DNA of 64,000 nucleotides from an uncultured Verrucomicrobia subdivision 3 bacterium (GCA_903889895.1 CAISYZ010000070.1:34368-98367); one strand, 5' to 3'. Counted from the stretch's first letter, positions 31,580-36,634 are shown. Made by a program: numbers and translations. Notes: generated from the letters alone by a model not told the origin.

Positions 31580-34336
31580 TTACCTCGGTTCCTCCTGACC
31601 CGGTGCTGGCATTGATTTGTTGGCACTGGGTTTTTCTTTGATCAGCGGAAACCGCCGGCCTACCAAATTCAGCAGCGCCGGCAAAAATGTCAGGCCCGCA
31701 ATCATGCACGTCGCGATGCCCGTGGCCATCATACAGCCAAGGCTATAGATGCCGCGATGCTGCGCAAGCATCAGGCTGCCGAATCCCGCGATGGCCGTCA
31801 ATCCCGACACCAGCACCGCCTTACCCGTGCTGCGCGCCAGAATGCTCGCGGTGCGCTCCTCGGCGTAGCGGTTCAAAATATGGATGCCGTTGGTCACGCC
31901 GATGCCGATGACCAGCGGCAGCGTCATGATGTTCGCCAGGTTCACCGGAATGCCCGCCCAGCCCATGATGCCCGCCAGCCACAGCGTCCCGATGGCGACC
32001 GGAATCAGCGATAAAATCACCGCGACCAAGCTGCGGAAATGGAACAGCACCATTAGCGCGATGGCCGTCAGCGAATACCACGCCGCCTGGATGTAGCTGT
32101 TCTTCAACAGCGTCTCGTATTCCAGAAGCTGCACCGGCGTGCCGGTGACGTTCGGATCCACCGTCCGCAAATCCGCCACGAAACGCTCCTGCGGCGCGCG
32201 TTGCCAGACGTCTTCCTTGGGATAAACCTGGATGAGAAATTTCCCGTTCACGCCGACAAACCGGTGGCGCAGGGCGGGCGGCAAATCGTCCACGCCCAGC
32301 GGCGCCTGGCTGTCCTGCCGCTGCAACAATTCAAACGTGTCGCGCAAATCGCCGAGCAGCATCTGCTGGAACTGCCCCAGCTTCAACGCGTGATCCGCGC
32401 GGACCGTCGCGTCGCCGGCCAGCGCGTCCTTGCGCAGGCTCGTGATGGCTTCGCTCAAATCATTCAATTGCGCGACCAGCACCGGATCGTTGGTGCCGAC
32501 GGCGCGCTCGGCCAGGCCGAGATAGCAGGAAGTGTAGAACAGCGTGCCGCTCAACTGCTCCACGTCCACCGGCTGCGCGTCCGGCGGACTGAATTTCAGC
32601 GCGGCCACCTCGCCTTTAACTTCCTCGATGAGCCGGAGTTTTGCCGGCGACGCCGGCTCCAGAAAATCCCGGTAGAACGGCGGCTGGGTTTCCGCCACCG
32701 TGGGCAGCTGCTCGATTTTTTCCTGCAACGCCACCGCGTTCGTGAGCGAATCGGCGACGACCGCGCCGTAGAGCAGCGACTTTTCCGCGGAGTTGAGCAG
32801 CTTCTGCTCGAAGACCACCGACGACAAACTCGGGCTTTGCATCTTGATGAGGTTGTAATCGAAATAAACCTTCCGCGCCTCCCACGCCGCCGCCGCGCAG
32901 AGCGCCAGCGTGATGCTTAGCACCAGCACCGGCCGTTGCAGCCAGAAGTTTTCCAGCCGCGCCCGCCGGTCGTCCTCGCGGATGGCGTGGTCGAGCACAT
33001 TTTGCCGGCCGCGCAGCAGCAGCACCGGCAGCATCGTCATCATGGGAATGAAACACACCAGCAGGCCGCCGCCGCAGATGATGCCCATTTCCTTGATGCC
33101 CTGAAAATTCGTGAAATACATCGACAGAAACGCGCCGGCCGTCGTCAGTGCGCCGATGAAAATGCCCTGGCCGGTGAACACCATCGCCTTGGTGATGGCT
33201 TCCTGCTCGGTTTTGCCGTGGTGCAATTCCTCCTCGTAGCGCGTGATGAGGTGCACGCCGAAATCAATCGCCAGCCCGATGAGCATCGGCACGAAGGTGA
33301 TGGTCAAAATGTTCAGGTGCCCGATGGTCACCGTCGTGAACGCCAGCGTGTAGCCGAGGCCGACGACGAGGCAGATGGTCGCCTTCACCGGCCGGCCGGT
33401 TTCGTGATAGCCGTAGATGAAAATCAGCGCGCACACCAGCATCGCCACCACGCTGGCCACCGTTGTGTCCCGTTGCGACTGCATCATCTCGTCGTAATCC
33501 AGCACCGGCTCGCCGGTGATGCCCACGTTCACGCCCGGCACCTCGGCCTTGGTCTGCCCCACCAGTTCGCGCAACCGGTCCACCGCGTCGCCGGTCTGGT
33601 CATCGGTCGGCGCGTGCGTGGTGACCACGAAAATTTTCCCGTGCGCAAACGTCAGGTAGCTGTCCAGCACCGCGTCGTCGCTGCCGCCGAGGAGCGTGAC
33701 CACGTTGGGCGACGGCGGCAGGCCGCTGCGATGCAAGGCGTCGCCGGCCTGCGACACGATGCGCGTCAGCGCCGGCAACGATTTCGCCAGCGACCGGTTT
33801 TCCGCGTTGTCCACCTGCGACGCCGAGCGGAAGGCGAGGTTGATCTGGTCAAAGAGCGAGACGAGATTCGTCGTCTGCGCGAACTGCGTGATGAACGGCC
33901 GCGCCGCGCGCAACGTATCGCGCATTTCCACGAGGTTCGTCTCGGTGGCGTAATGCAGCGCCTTGTTGCCCATCATGCCGAGGCTCTGCTGGTAAAACAC
34001 ATCGCAGAAGAGATTTGTCTGCGCCTGCATTTTCGCGGCGATGCGCTCGACGAACTGCCGGTTTTTTTCGAGGTCGTCGCTTTCCACCACCACCACCAAA
34101 TCGTCCGGCTGGGGAAATTCCTTTTCCAGCGCGAGATAGTTCTGGTGGTATTTCTGGTTCGGGCCGACCAGATTGTCGCGGTTCATGTCCGCCTTCAGGA
34201 AGAAGACGGTGTAGAGCACGCAGAGGATGAAGAGCCCCACCTGCGGCCAGAAGAACCAGTGCGGATAACGGCACACCGCCGCCGCCAGCCGCCCCAGCAG
34301 CCGACCCATGACACTGTCTGGACGGAGCGCCTTCAC
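31580..34336 (-). CDS. MMPL/RND-superfamily transporter, HpnN-like
   Basis: 918 aa with two 6-TM bundles, each followed by a large soluble loop. N-terminus reads RLAAAVCRYPHWFFWPQVGLFILCVLY. ATGA overlap with the upstream YbjQ-like gene. Confidence 0.75.
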   Translation of the reverse strand: MKALRPDSVMGRLLGRLAAAVCRYPHWFFWPQVGLFILCVLYTVFFLKADMNRDNLVGPNQKYHQNYLALEKEFPQPDDLVVVVESDDLEKNRQFVERIAAKMQAQTNLFCDVFYQQSLGMMGNKALHYATETNLVEMRDTLRAARPFITQFAQTTNLVSLFDQINLAFRSASQVDNAENRSLAKSLPALTRIVSQAGDALHRSGLPPSPNVVTLLGGSDDAVLDSYLTFAHGKIFVVTTHAPTDDQTGDAVDRLRELVGQTKAEVPGVNVGITGEPVLDYDEMMQSQRDTTVASVVAMLVCALIFIYGYHETGRPVKATICLVVGLGYTLAFTTVTIGHLNILTITFVPMLIGLAIDFGVHLITRYEEELHHGKTEQEAITKAMVFTGQGIFIGALTTAGAFLSMYFTNFQGIKEMGIICGGGLLVCFIPMMTMLPVLLLRGRQNVLDHAIREDDRRARLENFWLQRPVLVLSITLALCAAAAWEARKVYFDYNLIKMQSPSLSSVVFEQKLLNSAEKSLLYGAVVADSLTNAVALQEKIEQLPTVAETQPPFYRDFLEPASPAKLRLIEEVKGEVAALKFSPPDAQPVDVEQLSGTLFYTSCYLGLAERAVGTNDPVLVAQLNDLSEAITSLRKDALAGDATVRADHALKLGQFQQMLLGDLRDTFELLQRQDSQAPLGVDDLPPALRHRFVGVNGKFLIQVYPKEDVWQRAPQERFVADLRTVDPNVTGTPVQLLEYETLLKNSYIQAAWYSLTAIALMVLFHFRSLVAVILSLIPVAIGTLWLAGIMGWAGIPVNLANIMTLPLVIGIGVTNGIHILNRYAEERTASILARSTGKAVLVSGLTAIAGFGSLMLAQHRGIYSLGCMMATGIATCMIAGLTFLPALLNLVGRRFPLIKEKPSANKSMPAPGQEEPR

Positions 34337-34671
34337 GCGGTCTTTTCCACAAACACCGCCGTGCCGTAGCAGAGCACCTCGGTGATGCCCGGCGCGATTT
34401 CCGTGGCGTCATAACGCACGCCGATGACGGCGTTGGCGCCGAGCTGGCCGGCGTGGGTGAGCATGAGGTTAAACGCATCCTCGCGGGCGCGCTCGCAGAG
34501 GTTCGTGTATATGGAAATGTTGCCGCCGAAAATGGCCTGGATGCTCGCGCCGACGTTGCCGATGACCGACCGCGAACGCACGATGATGCCGCGCACCACG
34601 CCATAGGACTTGGTGATGTGAAAACCCGGCAGGTCAAACGTCGTCGTCGTCAGCGGATGGGTCATACTCAT
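34333..34671 (-). CDS. YbjQ/UPF0145 family protein
   Basis: The internal start MSMTHPLTTTTFDLPGFHITKSYGVVRGIIVRSRS...AVIGVRYDATEI gives 112 aa typical of UPF0145. The upstream 120 codons of the track ORF are Arg/Pro-rich and not protein-like. Confidence 0.75.
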   Translation of the reverse strand: MSMTHPLTTTTFDLPGFHITKSYGVVRGIIVRSRSVIGNVGASIQAIFGGNISIYTNLCERAREDAFNLMLTHAGQLGANAVIGVRYDATEIAPGITEVLCYGTAVFVEKTA

Positions 34672-35047
34672 AACCCATTGATTGAACACGACCCGGCGCA
34701 TCCGCAAAAGCGAAATCTTGCCGGACGCCGGTTCGGCGGCACCAAAAGAAATATTAATCCGCTGGTTTACTTTAAATTTAAACTGCGGCGGACCCATAGA
34801 CGGGCGCAAAAATTCTGCTATAAATCGCCGTTGCGGCCTGGGGACCGGCCGTGTCTTACCCGGAGTCCTGCCCAGAAACCATGACCCTGTCATCGCGGCA
34901 AGCAAGCAGCCAGCGGCCCGCCGGCCCAAAGTCCGGACCGCCCGCCCCGGCGCTTTGTCCCCCGCACCCGGCGGCTTCCGCCGCCCGACGGCGGGAGTTT
35001 TCCTGGCTCCCGGGCATTCCCGCCGCGTCACGGATACCGTTTTCCAC

Positions 35048-35236
35048 GGCTTGGGGGAAGTCCCCCATGACGCGGCGGACTCCCGCCATCAGCTGGGGGA
35101 AGCCCGCCACGGCGCGGGGGACTTCCCCGAGCAGCCGGGGGACGTCCGCCATGAGCCGGGGGACTTCCCCCATGGCGCGGAAAACCCCCGCGACCTCGCG
35201 GAAATGTCCCGCCGGACGACGGGGGAAGGCGTTGGC
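35048..35236. repeat. Nine tandem 21-bp repeats with a G4-N4-C4 core
   Basis: Units such as gggggaagtcccc, gggggacttcccc, gggggacgtccgcc and ggggaagcccgcc. The base following each G-run falls at 35058, 35079, 35100, 35121, 35142, 35163, 35184, (35205) and 35226, an exact 21-nt register. Confidence 0.8.
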
Positions 35237-35281
35237 CGGCGAAAAGGCCCGATTTCTCCTTAAAAACCCCCTTTTTGACCT

Positions 35282-36052
35282 ATGAGAATCGCTACCTGGG
35301 ATTCCGGTGACCCGGAAATGTATTTCGACAATCCCAACCTCCGCTGGGGTTCGCCCTCCTACCTCCTGGAGCCCGGCGATCCCGGCTACGTGCCACCTTT
35401 CCCGACGGTTCAAACAACAAGCATAAAAAAACACATGAAAAAGAAACACGACATAGTCCCAAAACCCATTGCCAAATATCTCGATTGGCATGACAACCTC
35501 AAAAACGGCGTCACCGCCACCACGCCCGGCGCCACGGCGGCGGATGTGACCATGCTGACCACCGATAACGGCGCGCTCCACACCAAACACACGGCCGCCA
35601 ACAACGCCGACATTGTGGCCAAAACCGCCCACACGGATTTTGCCACCGCGCAAGCCAACAGCATACGCAACGCCCGCGCCCTGGCCCAACGCATCAAAAA
35701 AAGCACCGGCTGCACTCCCGCCCTGATCGCCTCCCTGCAACTGGACGGTATCGAGGACACCACCGACATGACCCAGGAGAAACCCACCGTCACCGCCACC
35801 GCCAAAGCCAACGGCGTCATCGAAGTGGGCTTCAACAAAATCCAAGCCGAAGGCGTGCACATCTACGAAGACCGCGCCGGCACCGGCGTCTTCAACTATC
35901 TGGGCAGCGAGGTCCACTCGCCCTACGTGGACAACCGCCCGCTGCTGACGCCCGGCAAACCCGAGACCCGCCGTTACAAAGCCGTGTTCTTCATCGGCAA
36001 AGCCGAGATTGGTTTGGAAAGCGACATCGTGGAAGCCACCGCCCATCCCTAA
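35282..36052 (+). CDS. Hypothetical protein with a helical middle region and an Ig/FN3-like C-terminal domain
   Basis: 256 aa. N-terminus contains MYFDNPNLRWGSPSYLLEPGDPGY. An Ala/Thr-rich helical region follows. The beta-rich C-terminus reads PTVTATAKANGVIEVGFNKIQAEGVHIYEDR...RRYKAVFFIGKAEIG. A strong terminator follows the gene. No family name recognised. Confidence 0.6.
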   Translation: MRIATWDSGDPEMYFDNPNLRWGSPSYLLEPGDPGYVPPFPTVQTTSIKKHMKKKHDIVPKPIAKYLDWHDNLKNGVTATTPGATAADVTMLTTDNGALHTKHTAANNADIVAKTAHTDFATAQANSIRNARALAQRIKKSTGCTPALIASLQLDGIEDTTDMTQEKPTVTATAKANGVIEVGFNKIQAEGVHIYEDRAGTGVFNYLGSEVHSPYVDNRPLLTPGKPETRRYKAVFFIGKAEIGLESDIVEATAHP

Positions 36053-36069
36053 AACCGGCGGGCTAACGG

Positions 36070-36105
36070 CCCGGCGGGAAAAGGTTTTCCCGCCGGGTTT
36101 TTTTT
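36070..36105 (+). terminator. Rho-independent terminator
   Basis: Stem cccggcgggaaaa / ttttcccgccggg followed by eight T residues. Confidence 0.9.
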
Positions 36106-36241
36106 AGGTGCGGGAATATTCTTTGACAGAAATTCGCCAGTCCGCTTTCATAAACTCATGCTAAAAAAGGCCGCCGCCAAAACAACCGTGCAATCCCCAA
36201 AACACGGACTGCGGACTGCTATCAATTAGGCGGCGAATCGT

Positions 36242-36634
36242 ATGAGCGTGTATTTTAGATGGTTGGTTGGTTCTATGCTTTCAACGCTGCCTCTGTGGAT
36301 CGTGGTTGTATTTTTTTTGATGTGGCGGAGGCGGACTGCTACGCCAGACGTTGAGCGGCGACCAGTCTGGAGCATTTTAGCAGTGGTGTTTCAAATCGTT
36401 GCCATAGTTGCTGCCGTTTCAGCGTTTTGCATTTTTACTCAGCCCGAAAGCTTAATTGGTTTTATGTATGCCGTTCCAACCTACGCGTTCTTTGCCATGC
36501 TCGGCACTATTGCAGCTTTTGTAGCTGTTTTTCGTCGTGAGCAATGGCCTGCATTGTCGTGGGTCGCATTGTTTTTGAATGGTGTCCCATTTGTGATATT
36601 TCTCAGGCTGATAATTCAAAAAGTGAGTTTATGA
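36242..36634 (+). CDS. Small 4-TM membrane protein, unknown function
   Basis: 130 aa with four hydrophobic segments. Lies in a visibly AT-richer stretch. Confidence 0.5.
   Translation: MSVYFRWLVGSMLSTLPLWIVVVFFLMWRRRTATPDVERRPVWSILAVVFQIVAIVAAVSAFCIFTQPESLIGFMYAVPTYAFFAMLGTIAAFVAVFRREQWPALSWVALFLNGVPFVIFLRLIIQKVSL

What the first reader, a model, noticed from the sequence alone, without database searches (positions are those of the whole stretch)
35048..35236. Nine degenerate tandem repeats in a strict 21-bp register, each with a GGGG(G)A-N3-CCC(C) core
Seen in sequence: the unit cores are gggggaagtcccc, cggcggactcccgcc, gggggaagcccgcc, gggggacttcccc, gggggacgtccgcc, gggggacttccccc, gcggaaaacccccgc, gcggaaatgtcccgcc and gggggaaggcg. 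The first base after each G-run falls at 35058 + 21n for n = 0-8.

The core is conserved while the 9-10 nt between cores vary. That pattern argues for a DNA- or RNA-level signal and against coding heptads. The overlapping ORFs (34682-35263 on +, 34856-36046 on -) are Arg/Gly/Pro-rich and not protein-like.

A 21-bp period equals two helical turns, so all sites face one side of the duplex. Each core can also fold as a 4-bp G-C mini-hairpin in RNA.

Inference: candidates are an iteron or centromere-like protein-binding array, a regulator array for the orphan gene at 35282, or a structured RNA. It is not a CRISPR array, because there are no unique spacers.
Basis: partly seen in the sequence, partly recalled or inferred. 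Interest (0 to 1): 0.6.

Follow-up and report, generated by a model that had tools for sequence, protein, structure and literature searches.

The report
Phased 21-nt repeat leader of FN3 gene
The nine 21-base repeats are real and non-coding, and they are one local copy of a widespread but undescribed arrangement: a strictly 21-base-spaced repeat array between a promoter-like box and a small FN3-type gene, whose function is still unknown.

Summary
Observation confirmed. TRF finds periods 21/42/63, and 9 of the window's 11 GGSGGA-N3-CCSCS matches lie in the array against 0.8 expected.

The array is longer than reported: at least four decayed units extend it to 34969. It ends 41 nt before the ATG at 35282.

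That gene is not an orphan. It encodes a helical-hairpin plus FN3 protein from a family of 886 clusters (50% identity). Relatives in Verrucomicrobiota, Bacteroidota and Spirochaetota nearly always carry their own 21-nt array upstream: 28 of 30 loci in this genus and all 5 paralogues in this genome, each with a different repeat sequence. This genome holds about 78 intergenic 21-nt arrays.

Protein coding is disfavoured: substitutions are uniform across codon phases, 1-2-nt indels occur, and no reading frame is kept. Iteron, centromere, CRISPR, REP and CsrA-sponge readings fail their defining features.

Against a syntenic relative, the cores are conserved (11% changed) while loops and spacers are not (33-36%). 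Promoter-like boxes lie upstream of the arrays, so the array is probably part of the transcribed leader.

The mechanism is unresolved. I favour a DNA-level reading of two-helical-turn phasing (about 0.4) over an RNA-leader role (about 0.3).

This scan has reported the same kind of cassette before on other DNA. The nearest print is a descriptive account of constant-size 20-21-nt repeats.

The parts
34816..34825 (+). Promoter-like box TGCTATAAAT (extended -10 type) at the left edge of the cassette. It is the candidate start region of a roughly 450-nt leader.
   Evidence: It lies in the best-conserved block between the window and the syntenic relative L162. L165 has the variant TGCTAAATAAT at the same relative place although its cassette sits at another locus. 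This is inference only. The simple sigma-70 scan found nothing here.
34969..35052 (+). Four decayed 21-nt units, the older upstream part of the array.
   Evidence: They align unit for unit, without gaps, with the corresponding units of L162 (units -4 to -1).
35053..35241 (+). Nine well-kept 21-nt units, each with a GGSGGA-NN-TCCSCC core. The last two full units are of the GGAAAA type and the final unit is truncated.
   Evidence: Core conservation against spacer divergence is shown. The array is identical in unit number in three strain-level variants.
35242..35281 (+). Conserved 3' box (..CCCGATTTCTCCTTAAAAACCCCCTTTTTGACC) between the array and the start codon.
   Evidence: Related boxes (GCCAAAA..CCTTCAAAAACCC.T.TTTT) follow the arrays of L133, L134, L137, L139, L162, L164 and L165, and also the gene-less array on contig C163.
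35282..36052 (+). Gene for a 256-aa protein with three parts: an N-terminal 50-aa module, a helical hairpin and a C-terminal FN3 domain.
   Evidence: Homologs are listed. The AlphaFold model has mean pLDDT 84, with helices at 61-140 and a beta sandwich at 170-254. PDB fold matches are FN3 domains only. The start at 35282 is supported three ways: the N-terminal module is conserved in P0003 and P0006 and in paralogues on C199 and C257, and substitutions there are phase-biased. Most homologs are 204 aa and start at the position that corresponds to ATG 35435.
36068..36109 (+). Intrinsic terminator (14-bp stem followed by a T-run) that closes the monocistronic cassette.
   Evidence: A similar hairpin lies about 170 nt after the gene-less array on C163.

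Best explanation
SHOWN. The repeats are a non-coding cis element belonging to the gene at 35282. They make up most of the stretch between a promoter-like box (about 34816) and the start codon. The whole unit (promoter box, 21-nt array, 3' box, small helical+FN3 gene, terminator) is one copy of a cassette type that recurs many times in this genome and across phyla. The 21-nt period is always kept, while the repeat sequence differs from copy to copy. Within this lineage the palindromic cores are under purifying constraint and the loops and spacers are not.

INFERRED, my preferred mechanism. The array is read as double-stranded DNA through its phasing. 21 bp is two helical turns, so every core, or any bend a unit carries, faces the same side. 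This allows either a dimeric protein to line up cooperatively on the GGSGGA-NN-TCCSCC palindromes, or the unit bends to add up into a curved, silencer-attracting segment. Either would gate transcription from the upstream promoter into the gene.

I put about 0.4 on this DNA-level phasing reading. I put about 0.75 on the broader claim that the array is a non-coding, gene-linked control element.
For: Gene linkage:
- 28 of 30 relatives in the genus have lags 21, 42 and 63 as the three strongest self-similarity lags upstream.
- All 5 paralogues in this genome have their own array.
- Family genes sit directly after G5A-type arrays in Prevotellaceae, Dysgonomonadaceae, Treponema and Chthoniobacteraceae.

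Not coding: phase-uniform substitutions and 1-2-nt indels. Open frames are explained by composition.

Core constraint: 11% of core positions changed, against 33-36% in loops and spacers and 17% at third codon positions of the gene.

For a DNA reading:
- The period is kept while the sequence is not.
- Indels between species are whole units of 21 or 42 nt.
- The palindromes have a 6-2-6 layout, and a 2-nt centre suits a dimer site better than an RNA loop.
- There is no G-T over A-C excess on the sense strand in recurrent stems (70 against 90).
- Print reports the same 20-21-nt constant size, and a second class of 52 nt. My note: that is about five helical turns (PMC8161180).

The array is stable among strain variants of 96-98% DNA identity.
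Against: No DNA-binding protein is encoded in the cassette or next to it. The gene product has no nucleic-acid-binding fold.

Nearly identical paralogues (C132 and C215) have strongly diverged arrays.

Promoter-like boxes lie upstream of the arrays:
- Sense-strand TTGAC occurs in 19 of 40 loci against 5 of 40 on the antisense strand.
- A Bacteroidetes -7 box lies 44 nt before the L063 array.
- Only 20-62 nt separate the array from the ATG in the Bacteroidales FN3 loci.

The array is therefore probably transcribed, which fits an RNA role equally well. The sense strand is C-rich over G in 38 of 45 arrays. Many arrays show no consistent palindrome at all.
Confidence: 0.4

Rival explanations
1. 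RNA-level leader element. The array is transcribed as the 5' leader of the FN3 mRNA and acts as RNA. It could fold into phased hairpins or one long imperfect duplex, recognised by an RNA-binding protein or RNase III. Alternatively it could be processed into unit-length RNAs, as in type III toxin-antitoxin or sponge RNAs.
For: Promoter-like boxes lie upstream of the arrays, not between the array and the gene. The gap between array and ATG is only 41 nt here and 20-62 nt in the Bacteroidales FN3 loci. The leader after the arrays is rich in C and A. The predicted fold of 35027-35290 is -141.5 kcal/mol, z = -5.1. There are two double changes G3/C12 to C3/G12 between the window and L162. Palindromes are swapped as wholes between close relatives: GGGGGA..TCCCCC against TTAGGG..CCCTAA.
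Against: A period of 21 nt has no known meaning for RNA. The antisense strand folds as well or better (z = -6.1), as expected for palindromic DNA. There is no G-U over A-C excess. In this array the common mismatch at positions 6/9 is A-C on the sense strand. Many family arrays lack consistent stems. Array orientation relative to the next gene is not constant in one Prevotellaceae genome. No Rfam family matches. No CsrA gene was found in this 76%-complete genome. The protein is not ToxN-like.
Confidence: 0.3
2. Small upstream gene or translated leader. The array is the heptad-repeat middle of a short, fast-evolving ORF (here ATG 34881 or GTG 34851 to TGA 35285). Its stop overlaps the FN3 start codon (ATGA), so the 21-nt period would simply be seven codons.
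For: In the window and in L162, L164, L165, L169 and L166 the frame that ends at the ATGA overlap is open for 440-650 nt through the array. This holds in the TTTAGGG-type arrays, where only one sense frame is open, and across a 190-nt insertion. An ATG sits at a fixed distance after the promoter-like box in many loci. Sense strands carry fewer stop triplets than antisense strands.
Against: Substitutions in arrays are uniform over the three phases in 10 ortholog pairs, while the adjoining true coding stretch shows a clear phase bias. Indels of 1 and 2 nt occur within arrays. Homologous arrays are read in different frames relative to the conserved ATG (L140, L171 and L195). The reach of the open frame to the gene start is not beyond a composition-preserving null (16 observed against 12.6 expected of 23, P = 0.07). 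Stops are not avoided in one particular frame (8 against 6.8 expected). The C163 array contains a 20-nt unit. Periods of 20-23 nt are reported in print.
Confidence: 0.1
3. A tolerated minisatellite with no function of its own. The arrays arise and turn over by slippage and template switching in the leaders of these genes. Quasi-palindrome correction, not selection, would keep the cores.
For: Arrays diverge far faster than the genes (C132 against C215; window against L164/L165). Spacers changed at 36%, above the 17% seen at third codon positions. Gene-less copies persist (C163 and C225). The genome holds about 78 such arrays, many not next to a recognisable family gene.
Against: A neutral process does not explain three things: the same 21-nt period across phyla and sequences, the near-constant association with one gene architecture, and the unit-for-unit conservation of cores and unit number between species and strains.
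Confidence: 0.12
4. Iteron or centromere-like array of a replicon or segregation system.
For: Direct repeats of about 21 bp spaced two helical turns apart resemble plasmid iterons and parC-type centromeres. This resemblance rests on my own knowledge.
Against: The neighbours are MTHFR, Mla transporter, MMPL, YbjQ, sulfatase, H+-PPase and RuvB, with no Rep, ParA or ParB. The contig is 102 kb of chromosome. Dozens of arrays per genome sit at unrelated loci. No relative was found in viral contigs.
Confidence: 0.02

Closest known systems
Constant-size 20-21-nt (20-23-nt) tandem repeats with variable sequence in bacterial genomes (Subirana & Messeguer; summarised in Int J Mol Sci 2021, PMC8161180, which cites their J Bacteriol 2020 study)
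   Same: Non-coding tandem arrays whose unit length is fixed at about 21 nt while the sequence differs between families and species. There are several families per genome, a short conserved motif inside each unit, and mostly 4-10 units. The function is unknown. The authors guess at a protein that polymerises on the DNA, or at small RNAs.
   Different: As far as I could read, the print is descriptive. It does not report the linkage to a small helical+FN3 gene family, the position between a promoter box and the start codon, the conserved 3' box, or core-versus-spacer constraint. The 2020 paper itself is not in the searchable library, so I could not check it.
Iterons of theta-replicating plasmids and phages (R6K, pSC101, P1, F, RK2) and parC/sopC-type centromeres (from my own knowledge)
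   Same: Direct repeats of 17-22 bp spaced about two helical turns apart. Cooperative protein binding on one face of the helix is what the array would work like under my preferred reading.
   Different: There is no initiator or partition gene, no replicon context, many arrays per chromosome, and each array precedes a small FN3 gene.
Type III toxin-antitoxin loci (ToxIN, CptIN, TenpIN) (from my own knowledge; comparison suggested by scan note e1-3800584)
   Same: A tandem repeat array sits directly upstream of, and co-oriented with, a single protein gene, probably on one transcript. The repeat sequence is specific to each copy.
   Different: The units are 21 nt, not 34-45 nt. No terminator is evident between the array and the gene. 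The protein is a helical hairpin plus FN3, not a ToxN/AbiQ endoribonuclease. Near-identical proteins carry different arrays.
CsrB/RsmZ-type sponge RNAs and CsrA-bound leaders (from my own knowledge)
   Same: Every unit of this array type contains GGA next to a short GC stem, repeated every 21 nt.
   Different: No CsrA gene was found in this genome, which is 76% complete. Other arrays of the same cassette family lack GGA. There is no Rfam match.
Promoter-associated variable-number tandem repeats (contingency or rheostat loci) (from my own knowledge)
   Same: A repeat array lies in the control region of a gene. Whole-unit gains and losses occur between species.
   Different: There is no copy-number change among four strain-level variants. 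The units are long and phased, and unit order is conserved.

Membership tests
Constant-size 20-21-nt tandem repeat class (Subirana & Messeguer) | Tandem units of constant length of about 20-21 nt | tested here: met
   TRF period 21. Units are strictly in register at 35053 + 21n.
Constant-size 20-21-nt tandem repeat class (Subirana & Messeguer) | Variable sequence between families; several families in one genome; not protein-coding | tested here: met
   Five paralogue arrays have five different units. There are 85 period-21 regions in the genome, 78 of them outside long ORFs. Coding tests were negative.
Array-led small helical+FN3 gene cassette (seen repeatedly in this scan, not in print to my knowledge) | 21-nt-period array directly upstream of, and co-oriented with, a roughly 200-260-aa helical + FN3 protein gene, closed by a terminator | tested here: met
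   The array ends 41 nt before ATG 35282. The protein model shows a helical hairpin plus FN3. The terminator is at 36068. Of relatives' loci, 28 of 30 show the period.
Plasmid/phage iterons | Adjacent replication initiator gene and replicon context (origin, AT-rich unwinding element) | tested here: not met
   Thirteen flanking proteins were scanned against Pfam. All hits are housekeeping or transport families, with no Rep. No viral relatives were found.
Plasmid/phage iterons | Direct repeats of 17-22 bp at a spacing of about 2 helical turns | tested here: met
   Period 21.
Centromere-like par sites | Neighbouring parA/parB (or parM/parR) genes | tested here: not met
   None among the flanking genes.
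CRISPR array | Repeats of 23-47 nt separated by unique spacers of similar length; cas genes | tested here: not met
   Units are 21 nt with 7-nt inter-core segments and no unique spacers.
REP/BIME-type dispersed palindromes | Tens to hundreds of dispersed copies of one palindrome per genome | tested here: not met
   This unit type occurs at only three loci: C70, C163 and C225.
CsrB/RsmZ sponge RNA | CsrA/RsmA protein encoded in the genome | tested here: inconclusive
   No PF02599 match in G000, but the genome is only 76% complete.
CsrB/RsmZ sponge RNA | Repeated GGA motifs presented in hairpin loops of an independent small RNA | tested here: inconclusive
   GGA is present in every unit, but at the stem-loop junction. 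No separate terminator lies before the gene. There is no Rfam hit.
Type III toxin-antitoxin (ToxIN-like) | Toxin of the ToxN/AbiQ endoribonuclease fold | tested here: not met
   Fold search returns only FN3 domains. The N-terminal part is a helical hairpin.
Type III toxin-antitoxin (ToxIN-like) | Repeat RNA processed to units that bind the cognate protein | not testable with these tools
   This needs RNA data.
Protein-coding heptad repeat | One conserved reading frame with codon-type substitution pattern and only in-frame indels | tested here: not met
   Phase counts are 15/10/13 for the window against L162, and uniform in 10 pairs that also show 1-2-nt indels. The frame differs between L140, L171 and L195.

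The most novel reading that the evidence does not exclude
The 21-nt arrays are a general gene-control device that does not depend on sequence but measures period. On this reading the cell reads two-helical-turn phasing itself, through a curved or protein-coated DNA segment. The device would govern a very large, unnamed family of small helical+FN3 genes, with dozens of copies per genome in several phyla. It would also give a function to the 'enigmatic' constant-size tandem repeats already in print.
Probability: 0.3. Interest if true: 0.85.

Novelty: new variant of a known kind. Interest (0 to 1): 0.6.

Why it matters
Constant-size 20-21-nt tandem repeats have been catalogued in many bacteria without any functional context. 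This window ties one such array to a defined place: between a promoter-like box and the start codon of a small FN3-type gene. Three things follow.

- The pairing recurs across phyla and dozens of times within one genome.
- Each copy keeps the period but not the sequence.
- Within a lineage the palindromic cores are constrained.

That turns an unexplained repeat class into a testable cis-regulatory hypothesis. It also points to a large, uncharacterised gene family whose expression may be controlled in an unfamiliar way. Similar arrays occur in a cultured actinobacterium (Williamsia sp. CHRR-6), so bench tests are feasible.

Tried and rejected
- **DNA similarity in relatives.** A search of 40 relatives with the array found only two chance hits. 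The array sequence is not conserved even within the genus.
- **Rfam.** Permissive threshold over 30-40 kb: nothing at the array.
- **Sigma-70 consensus scans.** The tool found none in 34300-36300. My own stricter scan over 45 loci was uninformative. Only the TTGAC pentamer count gave a signal.
- **Coding hypothesis.** I pursued this in depth because a long frame ends in an ATGA overlap with the gene. I rejected it on substitution phase, indels, frame inconsistency and composition-matched nulls.
- **RNA wobble test.** G-T against A-C in recurrent stems showed no asymmetry. The test is dominated by a few homogeneous arrays.
- **Shared unit consensus.** A search across arrays found only partial motifs (TCCGCCAG, CTGGC/GCCAG) in subsets.
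- **CsrA.** Not found.
- **Viral contigs.** No relatives of the protein.
- **PHROGs and Pfam.** Only weak FN3 hits.
- **Literature.** No paper was found on 21-bp arrays upstream of FN3 genes. The 2020 J Bacteriol paper is not in the library.
- **Caution on the pattern scan.** The cross-phylum pattern scan also returns chance or coding matches in high-GC genomes. One example is L014, a GTPPPSG repeat inside a 778-aa ORF. I relied only on long arrays inspected individually.

Full report
**1. The observation**

The stretch 35048-35236 reads as described. In the register that starts each unit at the G-run, the units begin at 35053 + 21n:
- GGGGGAAGTCCCCCATGACGC
- GGCGGACTCCCGCCATCAGCT
- GGGGGAAGCCCGCCACGGCGC
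- GGGGGACTTCCCCGAGCAGCC
- GGGGGACGTCCGCCATGAGCC
- GGGGGACTTCCCCCATGGCGC
- GGAAAACCCCCGCGACCTCGC
- GGAAATGTCCCGCCGGACGAC
- GGGGGAAGGCG...

TRF reports periods 21, 42 and 63; the 42-nt period scores best (79% matches, score 151). Lag-21 self-identity is 0.57 against a window mean of 0.284 (z = 6.6). The core pattern occurs 11 times in the window, 9 of them here, against 0.79 expected from shuffles.

The core is an imperfect 14-bp palindrome, GGSGGA-NN-TCCSCC. Alternate units carry reverse-complementary centres (AAGT and ACTT), which explains the 42-nt super-period. At least four decayed units precede the nine (34969-35052).

**2. Copies in the same genome**

The window is part of a 102-kb contig of a 4.1-Mb, 57% G+C metagenome-assembled genome. 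It is 76% complete with 4.9% contamination. Hits to its proteins are labelled Verrucomicrobiota.

The same unit type occurs at two more loci:
- C163 carries two modules in tandem next to purH. One unit there is 20 nt long.
- The start of C225 is identical to part of C163 over 113 nt, so it marks an assembly break.

All copies share an internal order: several GGGGGA-type units, two GGAAAACCCCCGC units, then a terminal GGCGGGGGAAG.

The C163 copy keeps the 3' box and a terminator-like hairpin but has no gene between them. It lies 310 nt upstream of a PEP-CTERM protein gene. In a related metagenome contig (L165) the homologous gene with its array sits next to purH. C163 may therefore be a relic of a cassette that lost its gene. 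That is an inference.

**3. The gene**

The ORF at 35282-36052 has 296 close homologs and 886 representative clusters at E <= 0.001. Most are 204 aa and start at the position that corresponds to ATG 35435.

In this subclade, however, the 50-residue N-terminal extension (MRIATWDSGDPEMYFDNPNLRWGSPSYLLEPGDPGYVPP) is real:
- It is conserved in P0003 and P0006.
- It is conserved in the distant paralogue on C199.
- It is 67% identical in an otherwise unrelated array-led gene on C257.
- Substitutions there are biased toward one codon phase (7/20/8).

The AlphaFold model (mean pLDDT 84) shows a long helical hairpin (61-140) and a C-terminal beta sandwich. Fold search against the PDB returns only FN3 domains. 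There is no signal peptide and no Pfam family.

**4. Array and gene travel together**

A pattern scan of one genome per species found long arrays of G5A-NN-TC5 units at a 21-nt period in Prevotellaceae, other Bacteroidales, Treponema, Puniceicoccales, Verrucomicrobiaceae, Chthoniobacteraceae and others. Many lie at contig ends. Seven of these arrays are directly followed by a homolog of the window's gene, at 15-22% identity and with the same architecture. One Prevotellaceae array (L063) has the unit GGGGGAGTTCCCCCATGACGC, which matches the window's first unit at 19 of 21 positions, including all seven spacer bases, in the same orientation to the gene.

Selecting instead by protein:
- 33 of 151 genomes of the genus carry the gene, often in several copies.
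- 28 of 30 loci have 21, 42 and 63 as their three top self-similarity lags upstream.
- The unit sequences are quite different from locus to locus.

In this genome the four further paralogues found by translated search each have their own array with a different unit.

A genome-wide scan finds 85 regions of 21-nt periodicity, 78 of them outside long ORFs. Seven are next to family genes detectable by HMM. Many more are next to ORFs of 200-290 aa, and four of the five I inspected have the helical + FN3 layout (the fifth, on C257, appears helical throughout). One of them aligns over its full length with the family profile (hhalign E = 1e-4).

Arrays also precede unrelated secreted-protein genes in Bacteroidales.

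**5. Coding or not**

I took the coding rival seriously. In the window and in L162, L164, L165, L169 and L166, the frame that ends in a TGA overlapping the gene's ATG is open for 440-650 nt through the array. Many loci also have an ATG at a fixed distance behind a promoter-like box.

The tests went against it:
- Against the syntenic relative L162 (84% protein identity, arrays aligned unit for unit), substitutions fall 15/10/13 on the three phases of that frame. The gene itself shows 24/22/43.
- Ten ortholog pairs give uniform phases in arrays. They also show 1- and 2-nt indels alongside whole-unit indels of 21 or 42 nt.
- Homologous arrays are read in different frames relative to the conserved ATG (L140, L171 and L195).
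- The reach of open frames to the gene start is not beyond a dinucleotide-preserving null (16 of 23 observed, 12.6 expected, P = 0.07).
- Stops are not avoided in one frame in particular (8 against 6.8 expected). The sense strand is simply poor in stop triplets.

I conclude the array is not under protein-coding constraint. Translation as a sequence-free leader is not excluded.

**6. What is constrained**

Between the window and L162:
- Core positions (1-6 and 10-14) changed at 10 of 88 sites.
- Loop positions changed at 8 of 24.
- Spacer positions changed at 20 of 56.

Two of the three changes at position 12 are paired with the complementary change at position 3 (GGGGG..CCCCC to GGCGG..CCGCC). 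The unit number is the same.

Relatives whose protein is 79-82% identical (L164, L165) carry TTTAGGG-NN-CCCTAAA palindromes at the same period instead.

Three strain-level variants with the array region (L166, L167, L169; 96-98% DNA identity, gene product 99% identical) have the same nine units and no copy-number change. Two of them carry a 190-nt REP-like insertion between the array and the ATG.

**7. Where the promoter is**

The simple sigma-70 scans were uninformative. Other evidence points upstream of the arrays:
- The pentamer TTGAC occurs on the sense strand within 240 nt upstream of the array in 19 of 40 loci, against 5 of 40 on the antisense strand. Downstream of the array the counts are 3 and 3. 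A -10-like hexamer usually lies about 17 nt further on.
- In the Bacteroidales FN3 loci the well-defined -7 box (TAnnTTTG) lies upstream of the array (44 nt before it in L063). Only 20-62 nt separate the array from the ATG.
- In the window the gap is 41 nt. The best-conserved upstream block holds TGCTATAAAT at 34816-34825.

The array is therefore most likely inside a long transcribed leader. This is inferred, not shown. In contrast, arrays next to non-family genes in Bacteroidales have the -7 box between the array and the gene.

**8. DNA or RNA**

For RNA:
- The position in the leader.
- C over G on the sense strand in 38 of 45 arrays.
- A strong predicted fold (z = -5.1), though it is a long-range pairing of array halves rather than mini-hairpins.

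Against RNA:
- The antisense strand folds at least as well.
- There is no G-T over A-C excess in recurrent stems (70 against 90, with control ratio 449:682).
- Many arrays lack consistent stems.
- A 2-nt palindrome centre is too small for an RNA loop.
- Orientation relative to the next gene is not constant.

For DNA:
- The period, not the sequence, is what is conserved.
- 21 bp is two helical turns.
- Print reports 20-21 nt and, in Bacillus, 52 nt as the only constant sizes. My remark: 52 nt is about five turns.

Against a specific DNA-binding protein:
- None is encoded nearby.
- The gene product has no such fold.
- The nearly identical paralogues C132 and C215 have diverged arrays.

I therefore favour a DNA-level reading of phasing, either cooperative coating or additive bending, at about 0.4. 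I put an RNA-leader role at about 0.3, a translated leader at 0.1, a functionless minisatellite at 0.12 and an iteron or centromere at 0.02.

**9. Known systems**

Iteron, centromere, CRISPR, REP, ToxIN and coding-heptad memberships each fail a defining feature, and the CsrB-sponge test is inconclusive (see the membership table). The array does meet the descriptive definition of the constant-size 20-21-nt tandem repeats of Subirana and Messeguer (PMC8161180).

Earlier notes of this scan describe the same cassette on other genomes. I had found the gene linkage independently before reading them. They supplied the lead to the 2021 paper and the ToxIN comparison. One of them favours the coding reading that my tests here do not support.

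**10. Limits**

- The genome is an incomplete MAG.
- The loci compared are related, so the counts are not independent.
- Array detection used fixed thresholds.
- No transcript, binding or curvature data could be obtained.

Noticed in passing
L166:1116-1340 and L167:551-775 (strain variants of window about 35240-35275); also L133 and L135 leaders: A roughly 190-nt insertion carrying REP-like GC-rich palindromes (CCCTCTCCTCCC..GGAGGAGAGGG, CCCCTCACCCC..) sits between the array and the ATG in two strain-level variants. Similar hairpins lie in the leaders of other family genes.
   Followed up: partly
window 35282-35434; G000 C199:21834-; L199:333-488 (G000 C257): The 50-residue N-terminal module (M-R-I-A-x-x-D-S-G-D-P-E-M-x-F-D-N-P-N-L-x-W..P-S-Y-L-x-E-P-G-D-P-G-Y) is shared at 67% identity with an array-led gene on C257 whose remainder is unrelated. 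It also occurs in a distant paralogue on C199. It behaves as a portable module of unknown role.
   Followed up: partly
G000 whole genome, e.g. C196:40807-41210, C2:24779-25078, C96:812-1088: The genome holds about 78 intergenic regions with 21-nt periodicity, roughly one per 50 kb. Several begin behind a shared box ..AATTGGCTTTTTTTATAC. Most flanking genes were not examined.
   Followed up: partly
L038:543-826, minus strand (Prevotellaceae MAG): Here a G5A-type array lies inside a 236-aa ORF. The ORF starts with a lipoprotein-like signal peptide (MKTFLTFLTVLSLC..) and reads the units as MTRGDSP heptads before a non-repeat domain. This may be a case of an array captured in a linker.
   Followed up: no
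L065:2210-2740 (Williamsia sp. CHRR-6, a cultured actinobacterium): Two adjacent intergenic 21-nt arrays: CGTCGACTGGGCGGTAACTCC-type units, then 16 units of GCGGACTTCCGCCCAACCGAT. The strain has further pattern matches at three more places (one on the same contig). It is a possible experimental host.
   Followed up: no
L083:1-613, L044:3957-4616, L038:3776-4031 (termite-gut Bacteroidales MAGs): Several different 21-nt arrays lie side by side or in the same short locus. These genomes appear very rich in such arrays.
   Followed up: no
G000 C163:12350-12790 and C225:1-113: A gene-less double array of the window's unit type lies next to purH, followed by a terminator-like hairpin and a PEP-CTERM protein gene. 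The C225 contig begins inside an identical 113-nt stretch, so the assembly is broken at this repeat.
   Followed up: partly
   Followed up: partly
window 36242-36634: A 130-aa predicted membrane protein downstream of the cassette has no Pfam family. The corresponding neighbour differs in L162 and L165.
   Followed up: no
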